Positions 1 to 11,376 of a DNA stretch of 40,323 nucleotides are shown piece by piece. Within the stretch, counting starts at the first letter, position 1. Every line of letters starts with the position of its first letter. The stretch is from the IMG/VR virus record IMGVR_UViG_2695420876_000014. One strand, 5' to 3'. The position numbers and the translations under genes are program-made. This DNA is from a virus (lineage: Duplodnaviria > Heunggongvirae > Uroviricota > Caudoviricetes). The notes beneath the pieces were generated by a model, which saw only the letters and a program-made list of their open reading frames with translations, was not told the origin of the DNA and made no database searches.

Positions 1-1248
1 ATGGCACTGAATATTCCATTCAGAAATGCGTACTATCGTTTTGCATCCAGTTACTCATTTCTCTTTTTTATTTCCTGGTCGCTGTGGTGGTCGTTATACG
101 CTATTTGGCTGAAAGGACATCTAGGGTTGACAGGGACGGAATTAGGTACACTTTATTCGGTCAACCAGTTTACCAGCATTCTATTTATGATGTTCTACGG
201 CATCGTTCAGGATAAACTCGGTCTGAAGAAACCGCTCATCTGGTGTATGAGTTTCATCCTGGTCTTGACCGGACCGTTTATGATTTACGTTTATGAACCG
301 TTACTGCAAAGCAATTTTTCTGTAGGTCTAATTCTGGGGGCGCTATTTTTTGGCTTGGGGTATCTGGCGGGATGCGGTTTGCTTGATAGCTTCACCGAAA
401 AAATGGCGCGAAATTTTCATTTCGAATATGGAACAGCGCGCGCCTGGGGATCTTTTGGCTATGCTATTGGCGCGTTCTTTGCCGGCATATTTTTTAGTAT
501 CAGTCCCCATATCAACTTCTGGTTGGTCTCGCTATTTGGCGCTGTATTTATGATGATCAACATGCGTTTTAAAGATAAGGATCACCAGTGCGTAGCGGCA
601 GATGCGGGAGGGGTAAAAAAAGAGGATTTTATCGCAGTTTTCAAGGATCGAAACTTCTGGGTTTTCGTCATATTTATTGTGGGGACGTGGTCTTTCTATA
701 ACATTTTTGATCAACAACTTTTTCCTGTCTTTTATGCAGGTTTATTCGAATCACACGATGTAGGAACGCGCCTGTATGGTTATCTCAACTCATTCCAGGT
801 GGTACTCGAAGCGCTGTGCATGGCGATTATTCCTTTCTTTGTGAATCGGGTAGGGCCAAAAAATGCATTACTTATCGGAGTTGTGATTATGGCGTTGCGT
901 ATCCTTTCCTGCGCGCTGTTCGTTAACCCCTGGATTATTTCATTAGTGAAGTTGTTACATGCCATTGAGGTTCCACTTTGTGTCATATCCGTCTTCAAAT
1001 ACAGCGTGGCAAACTTTGATAAGCGCCTGTCGTCGACGATCTTTCTGATTGGTTTTCAAATTGCCAGTTCGCTTGGGATTGTGCTGCTTTCAACGCCGAC
1101 TGGGATACTCTTTGACCACGCAGGCTACCAGACAGTTTTCTTCGCAATTTCGGGTATTGTCTGCCTGATGTTGCTATTTGGCATTTTCTTCTTGAGTAAA
1201 AAACGCGAGCAAATAGTTATGGAAACGCCTGTACCTTCAGCAATATAG
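1..1248 (+). CDS. cscB: sucrose:H+ symporter CscB (LacY-family MFS permease)
   Basis: 415-aa ORF with a polytopic hydrophobic profile; N-terminus MALNIPFRNAYYRFASSYSF and overall sequence recognised as the E. coli csc-regulon sucrose permease; first codon is the first base of the window. Confidence 0.93.
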   Translation: MALNIPFRNAYYRFASSYSFLFFISWSLWWSLYAIWLKGHLGLTGTELGTLYSVNQFTSILFMMFYGIVQDKLGLKKPLIWCMSFILVLTGPFMIYVYEPLLQSNFSVGLILGALFFGLGYLAGCGLLDSFTEKMARNFHFEYGTARAWGSFGYAIGAFFAGIFFSISPHINFWLVSLFGAVFMMINMRFKDKDHQCVAADAGGVKKEDFIAVFKDRNFWVFVIFIVGTWSFYNIFDQQLFPVFYAGLFESHDVGTRLYGYLNSFQVVLEALCMAIIPFFVNRVGPKNALLIGVVIMALRILSCALFVNPWIISLVKLLHAIEVPLCVISVFKYSVANFDKRLSSTIFLIGFQIASSLGIVLLSTPTGILFDHAGYQTVFFAISGIVCLMLLFGIFFLSKKREQIVMETPVPSAI

Positions 1249-1259
1249 ACGTAAACTTT

Positions 1260-1308
1260 TTCCGGTTGTTGTCGATAGCTCTATATCCCTCAACCGGAAA
1301 ATAATAAT
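1260..1308 (+). terminator. possible terminator after cscB (9-bp stem, long loop, weak AT-rich tail)
   Basis: ttccggttg (1260-1268) pairs with caaccggaa (1291-1299), followed by aataataat; loop is long (22 nt), so this is weak. Confidence 0.3.
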
Positions 1309-1689
1309 AGTAAAATGCTTAGCCCTGCTAATAATCGCCTAATCCAAACGCCTCATTCATGTTCTGGTACAGTCGCTCAAATGTACTTCAGATGCGCGGT
1401 TCGCTGATTTCCAGGACATTGTCGTCATTCAGTGACCTGTCCCGTGTATCACGGTCCTGCGAATTCATCAAGGAATGCATTGCGGAGTGAAGTATCGAGT
1501 CACGCCATATTTCGCTATCAGGATTCTGTGTGATGGTTACATCGCCCGGCCCAGGGCTGTTTAGTCATCAGCGCTTTCTGACAGTGCTGAGATTTCAACC
1601 TGTTGCAGTAAAAATGAGTAGATATAAGGCAAGTGTGCTGCCAAACCCATCTTTTACGGGGTGAAGGTAGATTTCGTTTGAAGGGTATC

Positions 1690-1704
1690 TGGTGTCCCCT
1701 GCAG
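1690..1704. repeat. prophage attR core, tggtgtcccctgcag, matching the reverse complement of the argW tRNA-Arg 3' end
   Basis: 15-nt string equals the reverse complement of the acceptor-stem/CCA end of argW as I recall it; lies 74 bp from torI at the boundary between host-like and phage-like DNA; an imperfect inverted copy (cagcagggga, 1720-1729) follows. Confidence 0.6.
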
Positions 1705-1777
1705 ACATCTACTTGAGGCAGCAGGGGATTGATTGGAATGGTGTTTTTGAGATATGAGAAATATTTTACCCGCTATT

Positions 1778-1978
1778 TTACCCATTGGCGCGGCTTAAGA
1801 GCTTATTTTTGAATTCACAATGGTCACGATATAACCATCTTGCTCGTCCGTGGATAACTTTGGCTTTAGGCAGGTCGCCGGACTTAATCCGGTCATAGAT
1901 GAAGGTTTTACCGAAGCCAGTATCGGCCATGATGAATTTCAAATCAACCAGTGAATCAGGTTGTAGTTCGTGTTGCAT
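1778..1978 (-). CDS. torI: excisionase / recombination directionality factor TorI (AlpA-like winged helix)
   Basis: 66-aa ORF MQHELQPDSLVDLKFIMADTGFGKTFIYDRIKSGDLPKAKVIHGRARWLYRDHCEFKNKLLSRANG recognised as TorI of the KplE1/CPS-53 prophage; placed next to the att core. Confidence 0.9.
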   Translation of the reverse strand: MQHELQPDSLVDLKFIMADTGFGKTFIYDRIKSGDLPKAKVIHGRARWLYRDHCEFKNKLLSRANG

Positions 1979-1996
1979 GAGTGCTATCTCCGAATA

Positions 1997-2012
1997 GGGA
2001 ATCGAACCTGCA
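1997..2012 (-). other. tRNA T-arm-like fragment (gggaatcgaacctgca), not a complete tRNA
   Basis: 16 nt match the reverse complement of the argW T-stem/loop region (GCAGGTTCGATTCC); the flanks do not complete a cloverleaf or an acceptor stem. Confidence 0.4.
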
Positions 2013-2020
2013 AATCAGGC

Positions 2021-2044
2021 AATAAAAAACCGCCATCAGGCGGC
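2021..2044 (-). terminator. rho-independent terminator on the minus strand, upstream of torI
   Basis: Minus-strand reading gccgcctgatggcgg followed by ttttttatt. Confidence 0.6.
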
Positions 2045-2109
2045 TTGGTGTTCTTTCAGTTCTTCAATTCGAATATTGGTTACATTGTTTTCATATATGA
2101 ATAAATAAA

Positions 2110-3869: not shown

Positions 3870-4110
3870 TGGTTGCCTCCTGCTTTTCTGCCTTCAACAC
3901 CATGCGAGAACCATCATCCAGCTCCCACGCGATCTCACCACCTTCAGCCATGACCAGTCGCCACACCAATTGAGCAGCCTCATTGGTAACATCACGACCT
4001 GGATCATTGCCAACGCGCATACGTCCACCTTCAACATCGCGCATTTTTGCCAGCATGATAGTTTTTGATAGCGGTGAAAAACCAAGCTGTAGTCGTGCGG
4101 AATTACTCAC
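3856..4110 (-). CDS. hypothetical phage protein (GTG start)
   Basis: 84-aa ORF whose start overlaps the stop of the upstream gene. Confidence 0.45.
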
Positions 4111-6874: not shown

Positions 6875-7456
6875 ATGAACAACTCATGGTGGCAGGAACT
6901 AATGCATTTTTTCCTGCAAGGAATGACACTTAAACAGTTGATTCATATGCTAATCATCCTGATCATATTGATTATTGTTATGCCGGTAAGCGTAAAAGAA
7001 TGGATAAACCTGCATAATCCAGAAATCCTTCCTCATTACTGGATGTATTACATCCTGTTGTTTTGCGTTAGCTATGTGCTTAACGGCGTTGTTAATTCCG
7101 CTTATCACGCTGTGACTGAAAGAATTGAGGTATTCGCTGCTCAGAAGCGCAAATCTAAAGAAGAAAAATATGTGCAAGATTTGTTTGATTCGTTAACTCT
7201 TGGAGAAAGAGCGTATTTGGCATTCGCTGTAGCCGCTAATAACCAGCTACAAACGGAAAAGGGAGCTCATGAATCAATTTCATTGCTCAAAAAAGGACTC
7301 CTCGTTCGAAGGCCTCCTGCTGTTGGGTATCCTGATACCGACCGTTTTGTTATTCCTGAAAGCTATAGACATGAGTGCTACATTCGGTTTGCCGGGAAGG
7401 CAGACAGCCTTATGGATGAACTTATCGCTCAGGATAAGCATGGCAAAAACAAGTAA
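6875..7456 (+). CDS. sieB: superinfection exclusion protein SieB-like (two N-terminal TM helices)
   Basis: 193 aa with two hydrophobic helices (LIHMLIILIILIIVMPV and YILLFCVSYVLNGVV) and a soluble C-terminal domain; lies in the N-proximal early-left region but on the opposite strand to N. Confidence 0.55.
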   Translation: MNNSWWQELMHFFLQGMTLKQLIHMLIILIILIIVMPVSVKEWINLHNPEILPHYWMYYILLFCVSYVLNGVVNSAYHAVTERIEVFAAQKRKSKEEKYVQDLFDSLTLGERAYLAFAVAANNQLQTEKGAHESISLLKKGLLVRRPPAVGYPDTDRFVIPESYRHECYIRFAGKADSLMDELIAQDKHGKNK

Positions 7457-7472
7457 TTAGCAAATGAATTTA

Positions 7473-7856
7473 TCATCTCGCCGTCAGTTGTTTGGATTTC
7501 CGGTAGCCTGCCGCGTAAATGGCTACGTTTGGAAGACATACACCAGTTTCTGGTTGCTTATGTCCAAACTCATTCGCGTACACAATGGCCGCTCGCTCCA
7601 GATTGCGTCTGTATTCTTTCTGTTGCCAGATCACGTCCTGTGCCATGAACTTAATTGGCTTAGCGTCTTCTATACGCTCAGGCGTTTCGTGAGTACCTTT
7701 AGCCTGAATCTGCGCTCTGCTTAGAGTAGGGCGGTGTAATACTTCTGAACTTATTGCTTCTTCGCGGGCCAGTACGCCGTTAGCTAATGCCTTTACCTTT
7801 AAACGCTCACGACGACGAGAACGTGAATTGCCTTTGAACTGAGTTCTGCGTGTCAT
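7473..7856 (-). CDS. N-like transcription antiterminator with a P22-type arginine-rich motif
   Basis: 127 aa; N-terminus MTRRTQFKGNSRSRRRERLKVKALANG resembles the RNA-binding ARM of P22/phage-21 N proteins; strong SD (aggagg) before the ATG; matching P22-type boxB hairpins found at both nut positions. Confidence 0.75.
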   Translation of the reverse strand: MTRRTQFKGNSRSRRRERLKVKALANGVLAREEAISSEVLHRPTLSRAQIQAKGTHETPERIEDAKPIKFMAQDVIWQQKEYRRNLERAAIVYANEFGHKQPETGVCLPNVAIYAAGYRKSKQLTAR

Positions 7857-9886: not shown

Positions 9887-10591
9887 TCACGAACTTTTCA
9901 GCCACTCCCTTGCCTCGATGTCATCCAGATGGCGAGATTGCTTCAGAATACCAGCTACATACTCCACCTTTGCTACTTGATGATAAGGCAACGTTATAGG
10001 CCTGTGATCCTGGTTAATGCTTGTAAATTGGTATTCTCCATCTCTGTCATAGCCAAGAACCTTAATCATGTTGTGTCCTTCAACGGTTCTGACAAACACC
10101 TCATCACCCGGGAATACTTTGGTGTTAGGCTCAATGAGTACATATTCTCCTGATTTTATTCTGGGCCACATGCTGTCTCCTTTCACACGAAGACCAAAGG
10201 CATCTGGATCATCGCTATAAATTTTGAGCCACCCATCGCGCTCTTCGGTCATCTCGATGGCACCATCAACACCAAGAATTGCCTCACCAACCACGCGCAC
10301 TAACCCTTTTCTTACCTGACCGACAAAAGTTAAAGAATCTGAGCATGATGCAATTGGTGTTACATCATGTACCAAATCAAGCCACCCATTAGGTAACCCA
10401 AGCGCGGCTTCAAATTTTCTTGCTAGTTTATCCCCTATGTTTCGAGTGCTTTTTTCACCGGAGACTTGCGTGAGTTGAGAAGGGCTAACCCCAAGCTTAT
10501 CGGCAAAGCTTGCATTAGTGTTACCCGCGATTTTTTTATGCTCATCTAGCAAAAACGCCAGATTCGATTTGCGAATATCTTTGTTTTCCAT
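9887..10591 (-). CDS. cI: CI-like prophage repressor (N-terminal HTH, C-terminal S24 LexA-type autopeptidase)
   Basis: 234 aa; HTH-like FADKLGVSPSQLTQV and a C-terminal domain with VKGDSMWPRIKSGEYVLIEPN (catalytic Ser, with Lys downstream) typical of RecA-cleavable repressors; divergent from the cro-like gene. Confidence 0.9.
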   Translation of the reverse strand: MENKDIRKSNLAFLLDEHKKIAGNTNASFADKLGVSPSQLTQVSGEKSTRNIGDKLARKFEAALGLPNGWLDLVHDVTPIASCSDSLTFVGQVRKGLVRVVGEAILGVDGAIEMTEERDGWLKIYSDDPDAFGLRVKGDSMWPRIKSGEYVLIEPNTKVFPGDEVFVRTVEGHNMIKVLGYDRDGEYQFTSINQDHRPITLPYHQVAKVEYVAGILKQSRHLDDIEAREWLKSS

Positions 10592-11076: not shown

Positions 11077-11376
11077 ATGGAACAAACAAGTTACAGCAAA
11101 CTATCACAGCGAGAAATTGATCGCGCTGAAACTGATTTACTCATCAACCTGTCAACGCTTACCCAGCGCGGTCTGGCAAAGATGATTGGCTGTCATGAAT
11201 CGAAGATAAGCAGAACGGACTGGAGATTTATTGCTTCGGTCTTGTGTGCTTTCGGAATGGCATCAGACATCAGTCCGATTAGCAGGGCTTTTAAGTATGC
11301 GCTTGATGAACTCACCAATAAAAAACGCCCGGTGTGCAAGACCGAGCGTTCTGAACAAATCAAGATGGAATTCTGA
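11077..11376 (+). CDS. cII: CII-like transcriptional activator
   Basis: 99 aa; C-terminus ELTNKKRPVCKTERSEQIKMEF closely resembles lambda CII (ILTNKKRPAATERSEQIQMEF); sits between cro and O. Confidence 0.8.
   Translation: MEQTSYSKLSQREIDRAETDLLINLSTLTQRGLAKMIGCHESKISRTDWRFIASVLCAFGMASDISPISRAFKYALDELTNKKRPVCKTERSEQIKMEF

What the first reader, a model, noticed from the sequence alone, without database searches (positions are those of the whole stretch)
1690..1978. Split recombination module: excisionase torI at the left end, integrase intS 37 kb away at the right end
torI (1778-1978) lies 74 bp inside the 15-bp att core (1690-1704), and the integrase is at the far end of the prophage (39172-40323), both on the minus strand. 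In the circular phage the order would be early-left genes, torI, attP, int, so attP sits between xis and int and the int promoter must overlap the other att junction, just outside this window. This matches the KplE1-type organisation, where the excisionase both directs excision and can repress int.
Basis: partly seen in the sequence, partly recalled or inferred. Interest (0 to 1): 0.5.

Follow-up and report, generated by a model that had tools for sequence, protein, structure and literature searches.

The report
Known KplE1-type split integrase/excisionase module

Summary
The ORF at 1778-1978(-) is 66/66 identical to TorI (PDB 1Z4H). The ORF at 39172-40323(-) is IntS, 382/383 identical to the K-12 protein. 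TGGTGTCCCCTGCAG at 1690-1704 occurs once in the window.

The window maps to GCA_001277575.1 contig CYAG01000004.1:178232-218554, with no mismatches at either end. On that contig, 161 bp beyond the window, the same 15-mer forms the 3' end of tRNA-Arg(CCU) argW.

Joining the two bacterial flanks in silico gives an empty attB that is 100% identical over 715 bp in many E. coli genomes. Joining the two phage arms gives attP, found as one piece (97.8%) in phage HK620 between hkaC (=torI) and int. It also occurs in Sf6 and HK633, and its central 36-nt junction occurs in 14 IMG/VR contigs.

The attL arm carries, unchanged, the mapped PintS promoter, the five TorI sites and four IntS arm-type motifs described by Panis et al. 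2010.

The element is 38,795 bp and appears intact. This is already known biology, so interest is low.

One side observation: torI sits between two adjacent pieces of the last 30 nt of argW.

The parts
1690..1704 (-). attR core. It is a 15-bp copy of the last 15 nt of argW (nt 61-75, CTGCAGGGGACACCA on the minus strand). It marks the boundary between the bacterial DNA on the cscB side and the prophage.
   Evidence: Unique in the window. Identical to the 3' end of tRNA-Arg(CCT) on the same contig. The predicted attB is 100% identical in empty-site genomes. K-12 annotates the equivalent 15 nt as pawZ.
1705..1777 (-). P' arm of attR/attP, between the core and the torI stop codon. It contains an IHF-like motif AATCAATCCCCTG (1722-1734, one mismatch to WATCAANNNNTTR) and an IntS arm-type motif GGGTAAAAT (1763-1771).
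   Evidence: Motif scan. Nearly invariant between K-12, HK620 and the window. IHF is part of the published in vitro excision reaction. The position of the IHF site is my inference.
1775..1783 (-). Second IntS arm-type motif GGGTAAAAT. It overlaps the torI stop codon, so attR reaches into the torI gene.
   Evidence: The same 9-mer family occurs four times in the 45 bp upstream of the intS ATG on L008, where Panis et al. place the P' arm-type sites containing TAAA.
1778..1978 (-). [quoted passage not shown] It is the last gene of the prophage on this side.
   Evidence: 66/66 identity to PDB 1Z4H. PHROG 66 'excisionase and transcriptional regulator', E=2.7e-8. RefSeq annotates it as torI.
1985..2023 (-). 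Region directly upstream of torI. It is the equivalent of the HK620-annotated cII-dependent 'phage integration' promoter pI, with the cII site at 2010-2022. It contains at 1998-2013 an exact 16-nt copy of argW nt 46-61 (T arm).
   Evidence: HK620 and Sf6 annotations mapped through alignment A2. 16-mer match. The promoter is an annotators' prediction and has not been shown to function.
2027..2046 (-). Intrinsic terminator hairpin (AAGCCGCC-TGAT-GGCGGTTT, followed by a T run) between the upstream eag-like gene and torI.
   Evidence: Terminator scan.
7473..7856 (-). N-like antiterminator gene, the first gene of the leftward early operon whose last gene is torI.
   Evidence: PHROG 271, E=3e-38. 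All intervening major ORFs (erf, ssb and others) are on the minus strand.
9887..10591 (-). CI-like prophage repressor. It is inferred to keep the leftward operon, and therefore torI, silent in the lysogen.
   Evidence: PHROG 4 / CI-like repressor. A cII-like gene lies at 11077-11376.
39172..40323 (-). intS, a P4-type tyrosine integrase of 383 aa. Its promoter, the TorI sites, attL and argW lie 1-236 bp beyond the window end. In window-equivalent coordinates: arm-type motifs 40324-40368, -10 box 40360-40365, -35 box 40384-40389, TorI sites I5-I1 40390-40477, core 40485-40499, argW 40485-40559.
   Evidence: Pfam domains. 99% identity to K-12 IntS and 98% to HK620 Int. Off-window features were read on L008, which is the same contig.

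Best explanation
Interval 1690-1978 is attR plus the excisionase gene of a 38,795-bp, apparently complete P22-like (Lederbergvirus) prophage. The prophage is integrated in the 3' end of the tRNA-Arg(CCU) gene argW of an E. coli strain that carries the csc sucrose genes. It carries the KplE1/HK620/Sf6-type recombination module.

Shown here by sequence:
- IntS and TorI are encoded at opposite prophage ends on the same strand.
- In the circular phage, attP lies between them.
- The 161-bp arm between the attL core and intS carries the sigma-70 promoter PintS (TTGACA, 18 nt, TAAAAA). The promoter is interleaved with four IntS arm-type motifs, and five TorI sites lie just upstream, with I5 abutting the -35 box.
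- attR carries the core, an IHF-like motif and two arm-type motifs, the second overlapping the torI stop codon.

Taken from the literature on essentially identical sequences (K-12 KplE1):
- IntS is made constitutively at a low, self-limited level from PintS.
- Excision is triggered only when TorI appears.
- TorI binds attL and, with IntS and IHF, builds the excisive intasome.
- TorI also shuts PintS down through sites I4 and I5.

Inferred for this intact prophage: torI is the last gene of the CI-repressed leftward operon and lies behind an intrinsic terminator. It should therefore be expressed only after induction, by N-antiterminated transcription. This couples excision to the lytic switch without any co-transcription of int and xis.
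For: Identity of the parts.

Same-contig attL and argW with the identical 15-mer.

Precise insertion: the in-silico attB matches at 100% over 715 bp as a single piece, and 1415 genomes hold a place covering at least 80% of it.

attP between RDF and int in free phages: HK620 matches at 97.8% in one piece and has an annotated attP core. The same arrangement is seen in Sf6. 14 IMG/VR contigs, mostly 37-41 kb, carry the exact 36-nt attP junction.

Regulatory sites: alignment A1 shows the -35 box, the -10 box, the five GTTCG/GTCCG/GATCG sites and the arm-type repeats invariant against K-12. Their offsets from the ATG match the published coordinates.

Context that makes the module usable: N-like, CI-like and CII-like genes, O/P, Q, terminase, portal, coat, DNA-transfer and tailspike genes are all present as full-length ORFs. 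There is a terminator upstream of torI.

Mechanism: PMC2951348 and PMC3509656.
Against: Nothing was measured in this strain. Excision, PintS activity and TorI repression are carried over from K-12 and HK620.

IntS here ends two residues earlier than the 385-aa K-12 and HK620 proteins and carries E382D.

The attL arm differs from K-12 at 6 positions and the P' arm at 3 positions, all outside the defined motifs.

The torI promoter was described as uncharacterised in 2010, so the 'PL plus antitermination' step is inference.

A generic sigma-70 scan does not pick up PintS, because its -10 box is TAAAAA.
Confidence: 0.93

Rival explanations
1. Lambda-like coupling after all. In the circular phage, intS would be expressed mainly by read-through from upstream of torI, either from PL or from the annotated cII-dependent pI promoter, across attP. 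PintS in the attL arm would then be secondary, and the 'split' would matter only as a map artefact of integration.
For: The HK620 and Sf6 annotators placed a cII-activated 'phage integration' promoter just upstream of hkaC/gene 18. This prophage encodes a CII-like protein. torI and intS are co-oriented, and no terminator-like site was found between the core and intS.
Against: In the prophage the two genes are 37 kb apart and separated by the junction, so read-through cannot supply IntS for excision. PintS has a mapped transcription start site in identical sequence, and chromosomal intS is expressed from it. The pI site is TTGC-N5-TTGC rather than the canonical N6, and it is untested. At best this route adds to establishment of lysogeny and does not replace PintS.
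Confidence: 0.15
2. The module is an inactive relic. The prophage would be cryptic like K-12 CPS-53, and torI would be kept only for its host-regulatory role as a TorR inhibitor.
For: torI was first found as a TorR inhibitor. Many argW prophages are degraded, for example K-12 with only 10.2 kb left.
Against: Even the degraded K-12 element excises when TorI is supplied. Here the element is full length at 38.8 kb with intact regulatory, replication, lysis and virion genes. All att motifs are intact.
Confidence: 0.05
3. The 15-mer at 1690-1704 is a chance repeat or a leftover of another element, and the real prophage boundary is elsewhere.
For: A 15-mer alone is short. One of 100 shuffled windows gave a 15-nt match to argW.
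Against: Joining the flanks exactly at this 15-mer reproduces real empty sites at 100% identity. It also reproduces real phage attP at 97.8% in a single piece. K-12, HK620 and the window diverge from one another exactly at the core edge.
Confidence: 0.01

Closest known systems
KplE1 (CPS-53) cryptic prophage of E. coli K-12: IntS/TorI module at argW (Panis et al. 2007, 2010, 2012)
   Same: TorI is 100% identical and IntS 99% identical. The target tRNA, the core, the PintS promoter, the TorI sites I1-I5 and the arm-type motifs are the same, and int and RDF sit at opposite ends in the same orientation.
   Different: K-12 keeps only 10.2 kb and has no repressor. This element is 38.8 kb with a full lambdoid/P22-like gene set. 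The core repeat is 15 bp rather than 16 bp, because the bacterial flank is csc-type rather than dsdC. The gene downstream of intS is a Wzy-like gene rather than yfdGHI. IntS is two residues shorter.
Phages HK620 and Sf6 (Lederbergvirus): hkaC/gene 18, attP, int
   Same: The reconstructed attP is 97.8-98.2% identical in one piece. The order is the same: terminator, pI region, RDF, attP core, pX/PintS, int.
   Different: The rest of the genome is mosaic. The early region is closest to HK140/mEp506-like lambdoids. The late region is closest to the CUS-3, Sf101 and Huey group. The tailspike and conversion genes differ.
Lambda attP-int-xis module
   Same: A tyrosine integrase with arm-type and core-type sites, a small DNA-bending RDF, IHF, and an RDF that is made only after induction.
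   Different: In lambda, int and xis are adjacent on one side of attP. They are co-transcribed from PL, and sib provides retroregulation. Here attP separates them, int has its own autoregulated promoter inside attL, and the RDF represses int.
Satellite phage P4 int/vis, and P2/186 int/cox
   Same: Transcription of int and the RDF is uncoupled. In P4, int expression is lowered by both Int and the RDF. IntS belongs to the P4-type integrases, which carry the Arm-DNA-bind_3/DUF4102 N-terminal domain.
   Different: The RDF proteins are unrelated. Vis is proposed to act on int mRNA, whereas TorI acts on DNA next to the -35 box. The target tRNAs differ.

Membership tests
KplE1/HK620/Sf6-type recombination module | TorI-type RDF (66-aa winged-helix protein) | tested here: met
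   66/66 identity to PDB 1Z4H. PHROG 66 excisionase. Pfam and NCBIfam give nothing above their cutoffs, so membership rests on identity to the characterised protein.
KplE1/HK620/Sf6-type recombination module | IntS-type tyrosine integrase (arm-binding, core-binding and catalytic domains) | tested here: met
   PF13356 + PF22022 + PF00589. 382/383 identical to K-12 IntS and 377/383 to HK620 Int.
KplE1/HK620/Sf6-type recombination module | Integration into the 3' end of argW tRNA-Arg(CCU), with a duplicated 15-16-bp core | tested here: met
   The core at 1690-1704 equals the last 15 nt of argW on the same contig. The empty attB is reproduced at 100%.
KplE1/HK620/Sf6-type recombination module | attP lies between the RDF gene and int, so the two genes end up at opposite, co-oriented ends of the prophage | tested here: met
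   Both genes are on the minus strand, 37.2 kb apart. The reconstructed attP is contiguous in HK620, Sf6 and HK633, and its 36-nt junction is present in 14 IMG/VR contigs.
KplE1/HK620/Sf6-type recombination module | The integrase promoter is embedded in attL and overlaps the IntS arm-type and TorI binding sites | tested here: met
   On L008 (the same contig) the -35 box, the -10 box, five TorI motifs and four arm-type motifs are identical to K-12 and lie at the published offsets. The sites are outside the window.
KplE1/HK620/Sf6-type recombination module | TorI-dependent excision, and repression of intS by IntS and TorI | not testable with these tools
   This is an experimental property. It has been shown for K-12 KplE1 and for HK620 substrates (PMC2951348).
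Lambda-type int-xis module | int and xis are adjacent on the same side of attP and are co-transcribed in the prophage | tested here: not met
   torI is at 1778-1978 and intS at 39172-40323, at opposite ends, with attP between them in the circular form.
P22-like phages (Lederbergvirus) | P22-type virion module: tailspike with a head-binding domain, portal, coat, and ejection (DNA-transfer) proteins | tested here: met
   PF09008 Head_binding, E=6e-63. Portal, major head, terminase and DNA-transfer PHROGs. 95-97% DNA matches to CUS-3, Sf101 and Huey.

The most novel reading that the evidence does not exclude
The torI cassette is flanked by the two halves of one tRNA end. argW nt 46-61 (window 1998-2013) lies 19 nt upstream of the torI ATG. 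argW nt 61-75 is the att core (1690-1704). The two pieces are colinear, co-oriented and 293 bp apart. The most novel reading is that the RDF gene, together with its arm, was inserted into an ancestral attP that held about 30 nt of argW. An alternative novel reading is that the retained T-arm copy is functional. It contains a GTTCG TorI-type motif and overlaps the predicted pI promoter, so it could be an operator through which TorI or IntS controls torI or establishment-phase int expression.
Probability: 0.15. Interest if true: 0.35.

Novelty: already known. Interest (0 to 1): 0.1.

Why it matters
The finding adds little new knowledge. It is one more, apparently intact, carrier of a recombination module that has been dissected genetically, biochemically and structurally in K-12 KplE1 and in HK620. 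Related intS sequences occur in about 2,000 of 5,426 complete E. coli genomes.

Its practical value lies in annotation:
- It fixes the prophage boundaries to the base (window 1705 to 176 bp beyond the window end, 38,795 bp).
- It shows that argW is reconstituted by the phage-borne core.
- It predicts that this prophage is excision-competent and inducible.

The intact CI/N/terminator context makes this strain, unlike K-12, suitable for testing how torI expression is wired to induction. That step was left open in the published work.

Tried and rejected
- Pfam and NCBIfam on TorI returned no family above cutoff (HTH_17 at 16.9 bits, AlpA at 12.7 bits). I relied on identity to 1Z4H instead.
- Rfam on 1250-2450 at E<=5 gave only sub-threshold hits (STnc130 at 24 bits against a gathering score of 55, and others). 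I rejected them.
- The generic promoter scan missed PintS because its -10 box is TAAAAA, and it proposed a different weak site that I do not trust.
- The source genome is not among the complete E. coli genomes. The best match covering the whole right-end query (window 38800-40323) is 96.8%. I recovered the source through exact-protein look-ups instead.
- The 2007 JBC paper that first footprinted attL and attR is not in the library. The attR site assignments (two arm-type motifs, one IHF-like motif) are therefore my motif readings, not published coordinates.
- The search for related loci with TorI kept only 100%-identical copies. It gave no divergent modules for testing the split-tRNA idea. The one divergent relative examined, Klebsiella phage Chronis, lacks the 16-mer.
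- The ORF at 1654-1785(-), the hkaB/Sf6 gp17 homologue, has no family hits, and integration rewrites its C-terminus. I treated it as probably non-coding.

Full report
**1. What is at the coordinates**

The minus-strand ORF at 1778-1978 encodes 66 aa. It is residue-for-residue identical to the NMR-solved 'Tor inhibition protein' TorI, PDB 1Z4H. RefSeq annotates the same sequence as torI in hundreds of E. coli genomes.

TGGTGTCCCCTGCAG at 1690-1704 is the only match in the window, even allowing two mismatches. The space between it and the torI stop codon is 73 nt.

The ORF at 39172-40323(-) ends on its ATG at the last base of the window. It has the three domains of a P4-type tyrosine integrase. 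It is 382/383 identical to K-12 IntS and 377/383 identical to HK620 Int. Both of those proteins are 385 aa, two residues longer at the C-terminus.

The window starts with a cscB-type LacY symporter and contains no tRNA.

**2. Extending the window**

None of the 5,426 complete E. coli genomes matches the whole right-end query (window 38800-40323) at better than 96.8%. Exact-protein look-ups found the source.

L008 and L016 both come from GCA_001277575.1 contig CYAG01000004.1. L008 has 0 mismatches to the window over 4989 nt and L016 has 0 over 6030 nt. This places the window at 178232-218554 of that contig.

Beyond the window end lie 161 bp of phage arm, and then CTGCAGGGGACACCA as the last 15 nt of tRNA-Arg(CCT) argW. 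After that come yfdC, mlaA and fadL.

attL and attR therefore share exactly 15 bp. The next base is T at attL and G at attR. K-12 has a 16-bp repeat because its attR flank is dsdC-type. Another genome in which this prophage end abuts dsdC shows the K-12-type junction (L013).

One unit of the element, counting one core copy, is 38,795 bp.

**3.

Joining the argW side of attL to the cscB side of attR at the core gives a 715-bp attB. It occurs uninterrupted at 100% identity in many E. coli genomes. In total, 1415 genomes hold a place covering at least 80% of it.

Joining the torI side to the intS side gives an 883-bp attP. It occurs as a single 97.8%-identical piece in phage HK620, whose authors annotated the attP core, attP repeats, hkaC and int there. 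It also occurs in HK633, Sf6, N7, IME10 and others.

The exact 36-nt attP junction is present in 14 IMG/VR contigs, most of them 37-41 kb long.

K-12, HK620 and the window align almost perfectly up to the core edge and diverge immediately after it. Insertion is therefore precise at this 15-mer.

**4. Anatomy of the two att sites**

The attL arm on L008 differs from K-12 at six positions. None of them falls in a defined element.

Using the published offsets from the intS ATG, the arm contains:
- TorI sites I1 and I2: GTTCG and GTCCG at L008 3847-3851 and 3867-3871.
- TorI sites I3, I4 and I5: GTTCG, GTTCG and GATCG at 3910-3934.
- The -35 box TTGACA at 3935-3940 and the -10 box TAAAAA at 3959-3964.
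- Four GG(G/A)TAAAA(A/T) arm-type motifs between 3956 and 4000.

All of these lie beyond the window, at window-equivalent positions 40324-40477.

Within the window, attR has three recognisable elements:
- the core;
- an IHF-like AATCAATCCCCTG at 1722-1734;
- two direct GGGTAAAAT arm-type motifs at 1763-1771 and 1775-1783.

The second arm-type motif overlaps the torI stop codon, so attR extends into the gene. The attR assignments are my own motif readings, because the 2007 footprinting paper is not available in the library.

**5. How it works**

Panis et al. (PMC2951348) established the following for essentially this sequence:
- intS is transcribed from PintS inside attL.
- intS is repressed by IntS, through arm-type sites around the -10 box.
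- intS is also repressed by TorI, through I4 and I5 next to the -35 box.
- Excision efficiency has a narrow IntS optimum.
- Producing TorI is sufficient to trigger excision.

The in vitro reaction uses IntS, TorI and IHF on attL and attR. TorI also binds IntS and TorR.

For the present element I infer the upstream control. torI is the last gene of a minus-strand operon that begins with an N-like antiterminator (7473-7856) and continues through erf and ssb. A CI-like repressor gene lies at 9887-10591. A clean intrinsic terminator (2046-2027 plus a T run) sits just before torI. TorI should therefore appear only after repressor loss and antitermination.

The torI promoter itself was still called uncharacterised in 2010. 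The HK620 and Sf6 annotators predicted a cII-dependent promoter (pI) in the 40 bp upstream of the gene, and this prophage has a CII-like gene. I treat a pI/read-through contribution to int expression during establishment as a secondary possibility, not as a replacement for PintS.

**6. Is the prophage intact?**

PHROG and Pfam hits identify the CI-like, N-like and CII-like regulators, the O-like and P-like replication proteins, and Q. They also identify the large terminase, portal, major head protein, DNA-transfer protein and a P22-type tailspike. All are full-length ORFs.

At the DNA level the genome is mosaic. The early half is closest to HK140 and mEp506. The late half is closest to the CUS-3, Sf101 and Huey group, at 95-97% identity. 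Nothing suggests decay, unlike the 10.2-kb K-12 remnant.

**7. Comparison and novelty**

All sequence-testable defining features of the KplE1/HK620/Sf6 module are met. The defining feature of the lambda arrangement, adjacent co-transcribed int and xis, is not met. The functional features were not testable here.

The literature already describes this organisation and its regulation as a 'new paradigm' (2010). It explicitly lists HK620, Sf6, CUS-3 and E. coli prophages as carriers.

The module is very common. intS-like sequences occur in 2,084 of 5,426 complete genomes. In IMG/VR, 444 candidate stretches encode a TorI relative, and the best 80 that were kept are all 100% identical to TorI.

**8. 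Side observation**

The two longest exact matches between argW and the window are the core (argW nt 61-75) and a 16-mer, TTGCAGGTTCGATTCC (argW nt 46-61). The 16-mer lies at 1998-2013(-), 19 nt upstream of the torI ATG. In 100 shuffled windows, the longest match to argW was usually 10-12 nt and at most 15 nt.

The two pieces are co-oriented and colinear, and they abut in the tRNA. torI plus the P' arm (293 bp) therefore sits between the halves of the last 30 nt of argW.

The 16-mer is conserved in K-12, HK620 and Sf6. It is present at that position in 74 of 80 IMG/VR contigs with identical TorI. It is absent from the 78%-identical module of Klebsiella phage Chronis, where xis overlaps an upstream gene.

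The 16-mer coincides with the predicted pI/cII site of HK620 and with the Sf6 'boundary sequence bsq2'. It also contains a GTTCG motif.

It may be a footprint of how the RDF gene entered an ancestral attP, or it may be a functional operator. I could not discriminate between these readings.

Noticed in passing
window 1998-2013 (- strand), with 1690-1704: There is an exact 16-nt copy of argW nt 46-61 (T arm) 19 nt upstream of the torI ATG. The att core is argW nt 61-75. Together the two pieces make up the last 30 nt of argW, split by the 293-bp segment holding torI and the P' arm. The 16-mer overlaps the HK620-annotated cII-dependent pI promoter and the Sf6 'bsq2' boundary sequence, and it contains a GTTCG TorI-type motif. 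It is conserved in K-12, HK620, Sf6 and 74 of 80 IMG/VR copies, and absent in Klebsiella phage Chronis.
   Followed up: partly
window 2027-2046 (- strand): A strong intrinsic terminator hairpin with a T run lies between the eag-like gene (2110-2322) and torI. Transcription from the early-left operon would therefore need antitermination to reach torI.
   Followed up: partly
window 37431-38756 (- strand): A 441-aa membrane protein gene lies downstream of intS. It occupies the slot where K-12 KplE1 has yfdGHI (gtr-type O-antigen glucosylation). It is annotated 'O-antigen polymerase' in a relative and hits TIGR04370 (repeat-unit polymerase) weakly, at 32 bits against a cutoff of 40. It also matches PHROG 14022 of unknown function. 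It is a likely lysogenic-conversion gene of the Wzy type.
   Followed up: partly
window 1654-1785 (- strand): A 43-aa ORF homologous to HK620 hkaB and Sf6 gene 17 starts inside the torI stop region and runs across the att core into bacterial DNA. Integration therefore rewrites its C-terminus. It has no family hits, and its conservation is better explained by the arm-type and IHF-like sites it overlaps.
   Followed up: partly
window 1-1689: The bacterial flank at attR is the csc sucrose locus (cscB at 1-1248, with cscK and cscA further left on the contig), not dsdC/dsdX as in K-12. This flank difference is why the core repeat is 15 bp here and 16 bp in K-12. In one near-identical genome (strain E94) cscB is a pseudogene.
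   Followed up: partly
window 6875-7456 (+ strand): A gene matching PHROG 1301, which is annotated 'superinfection exclusion; inhibits SieB', E=3e-122. It lies on the opposite strand inside the leftward early region, between the N-like gene and erf.
   Followed up: no
L036-L115 (IMG/VR contigs with identical TorI): Downstream of the core these contigs show at least five different flanks: csc-type, dsdC-type, attP form, and three others that begin TGAACACTTCTC, TTTATCCTTCCA and TCCCGCTGTACA. The same module therefore abuts several different neighbourhoods, which could be other host backgrounds or tandem elements at argW.
   Followed up: no
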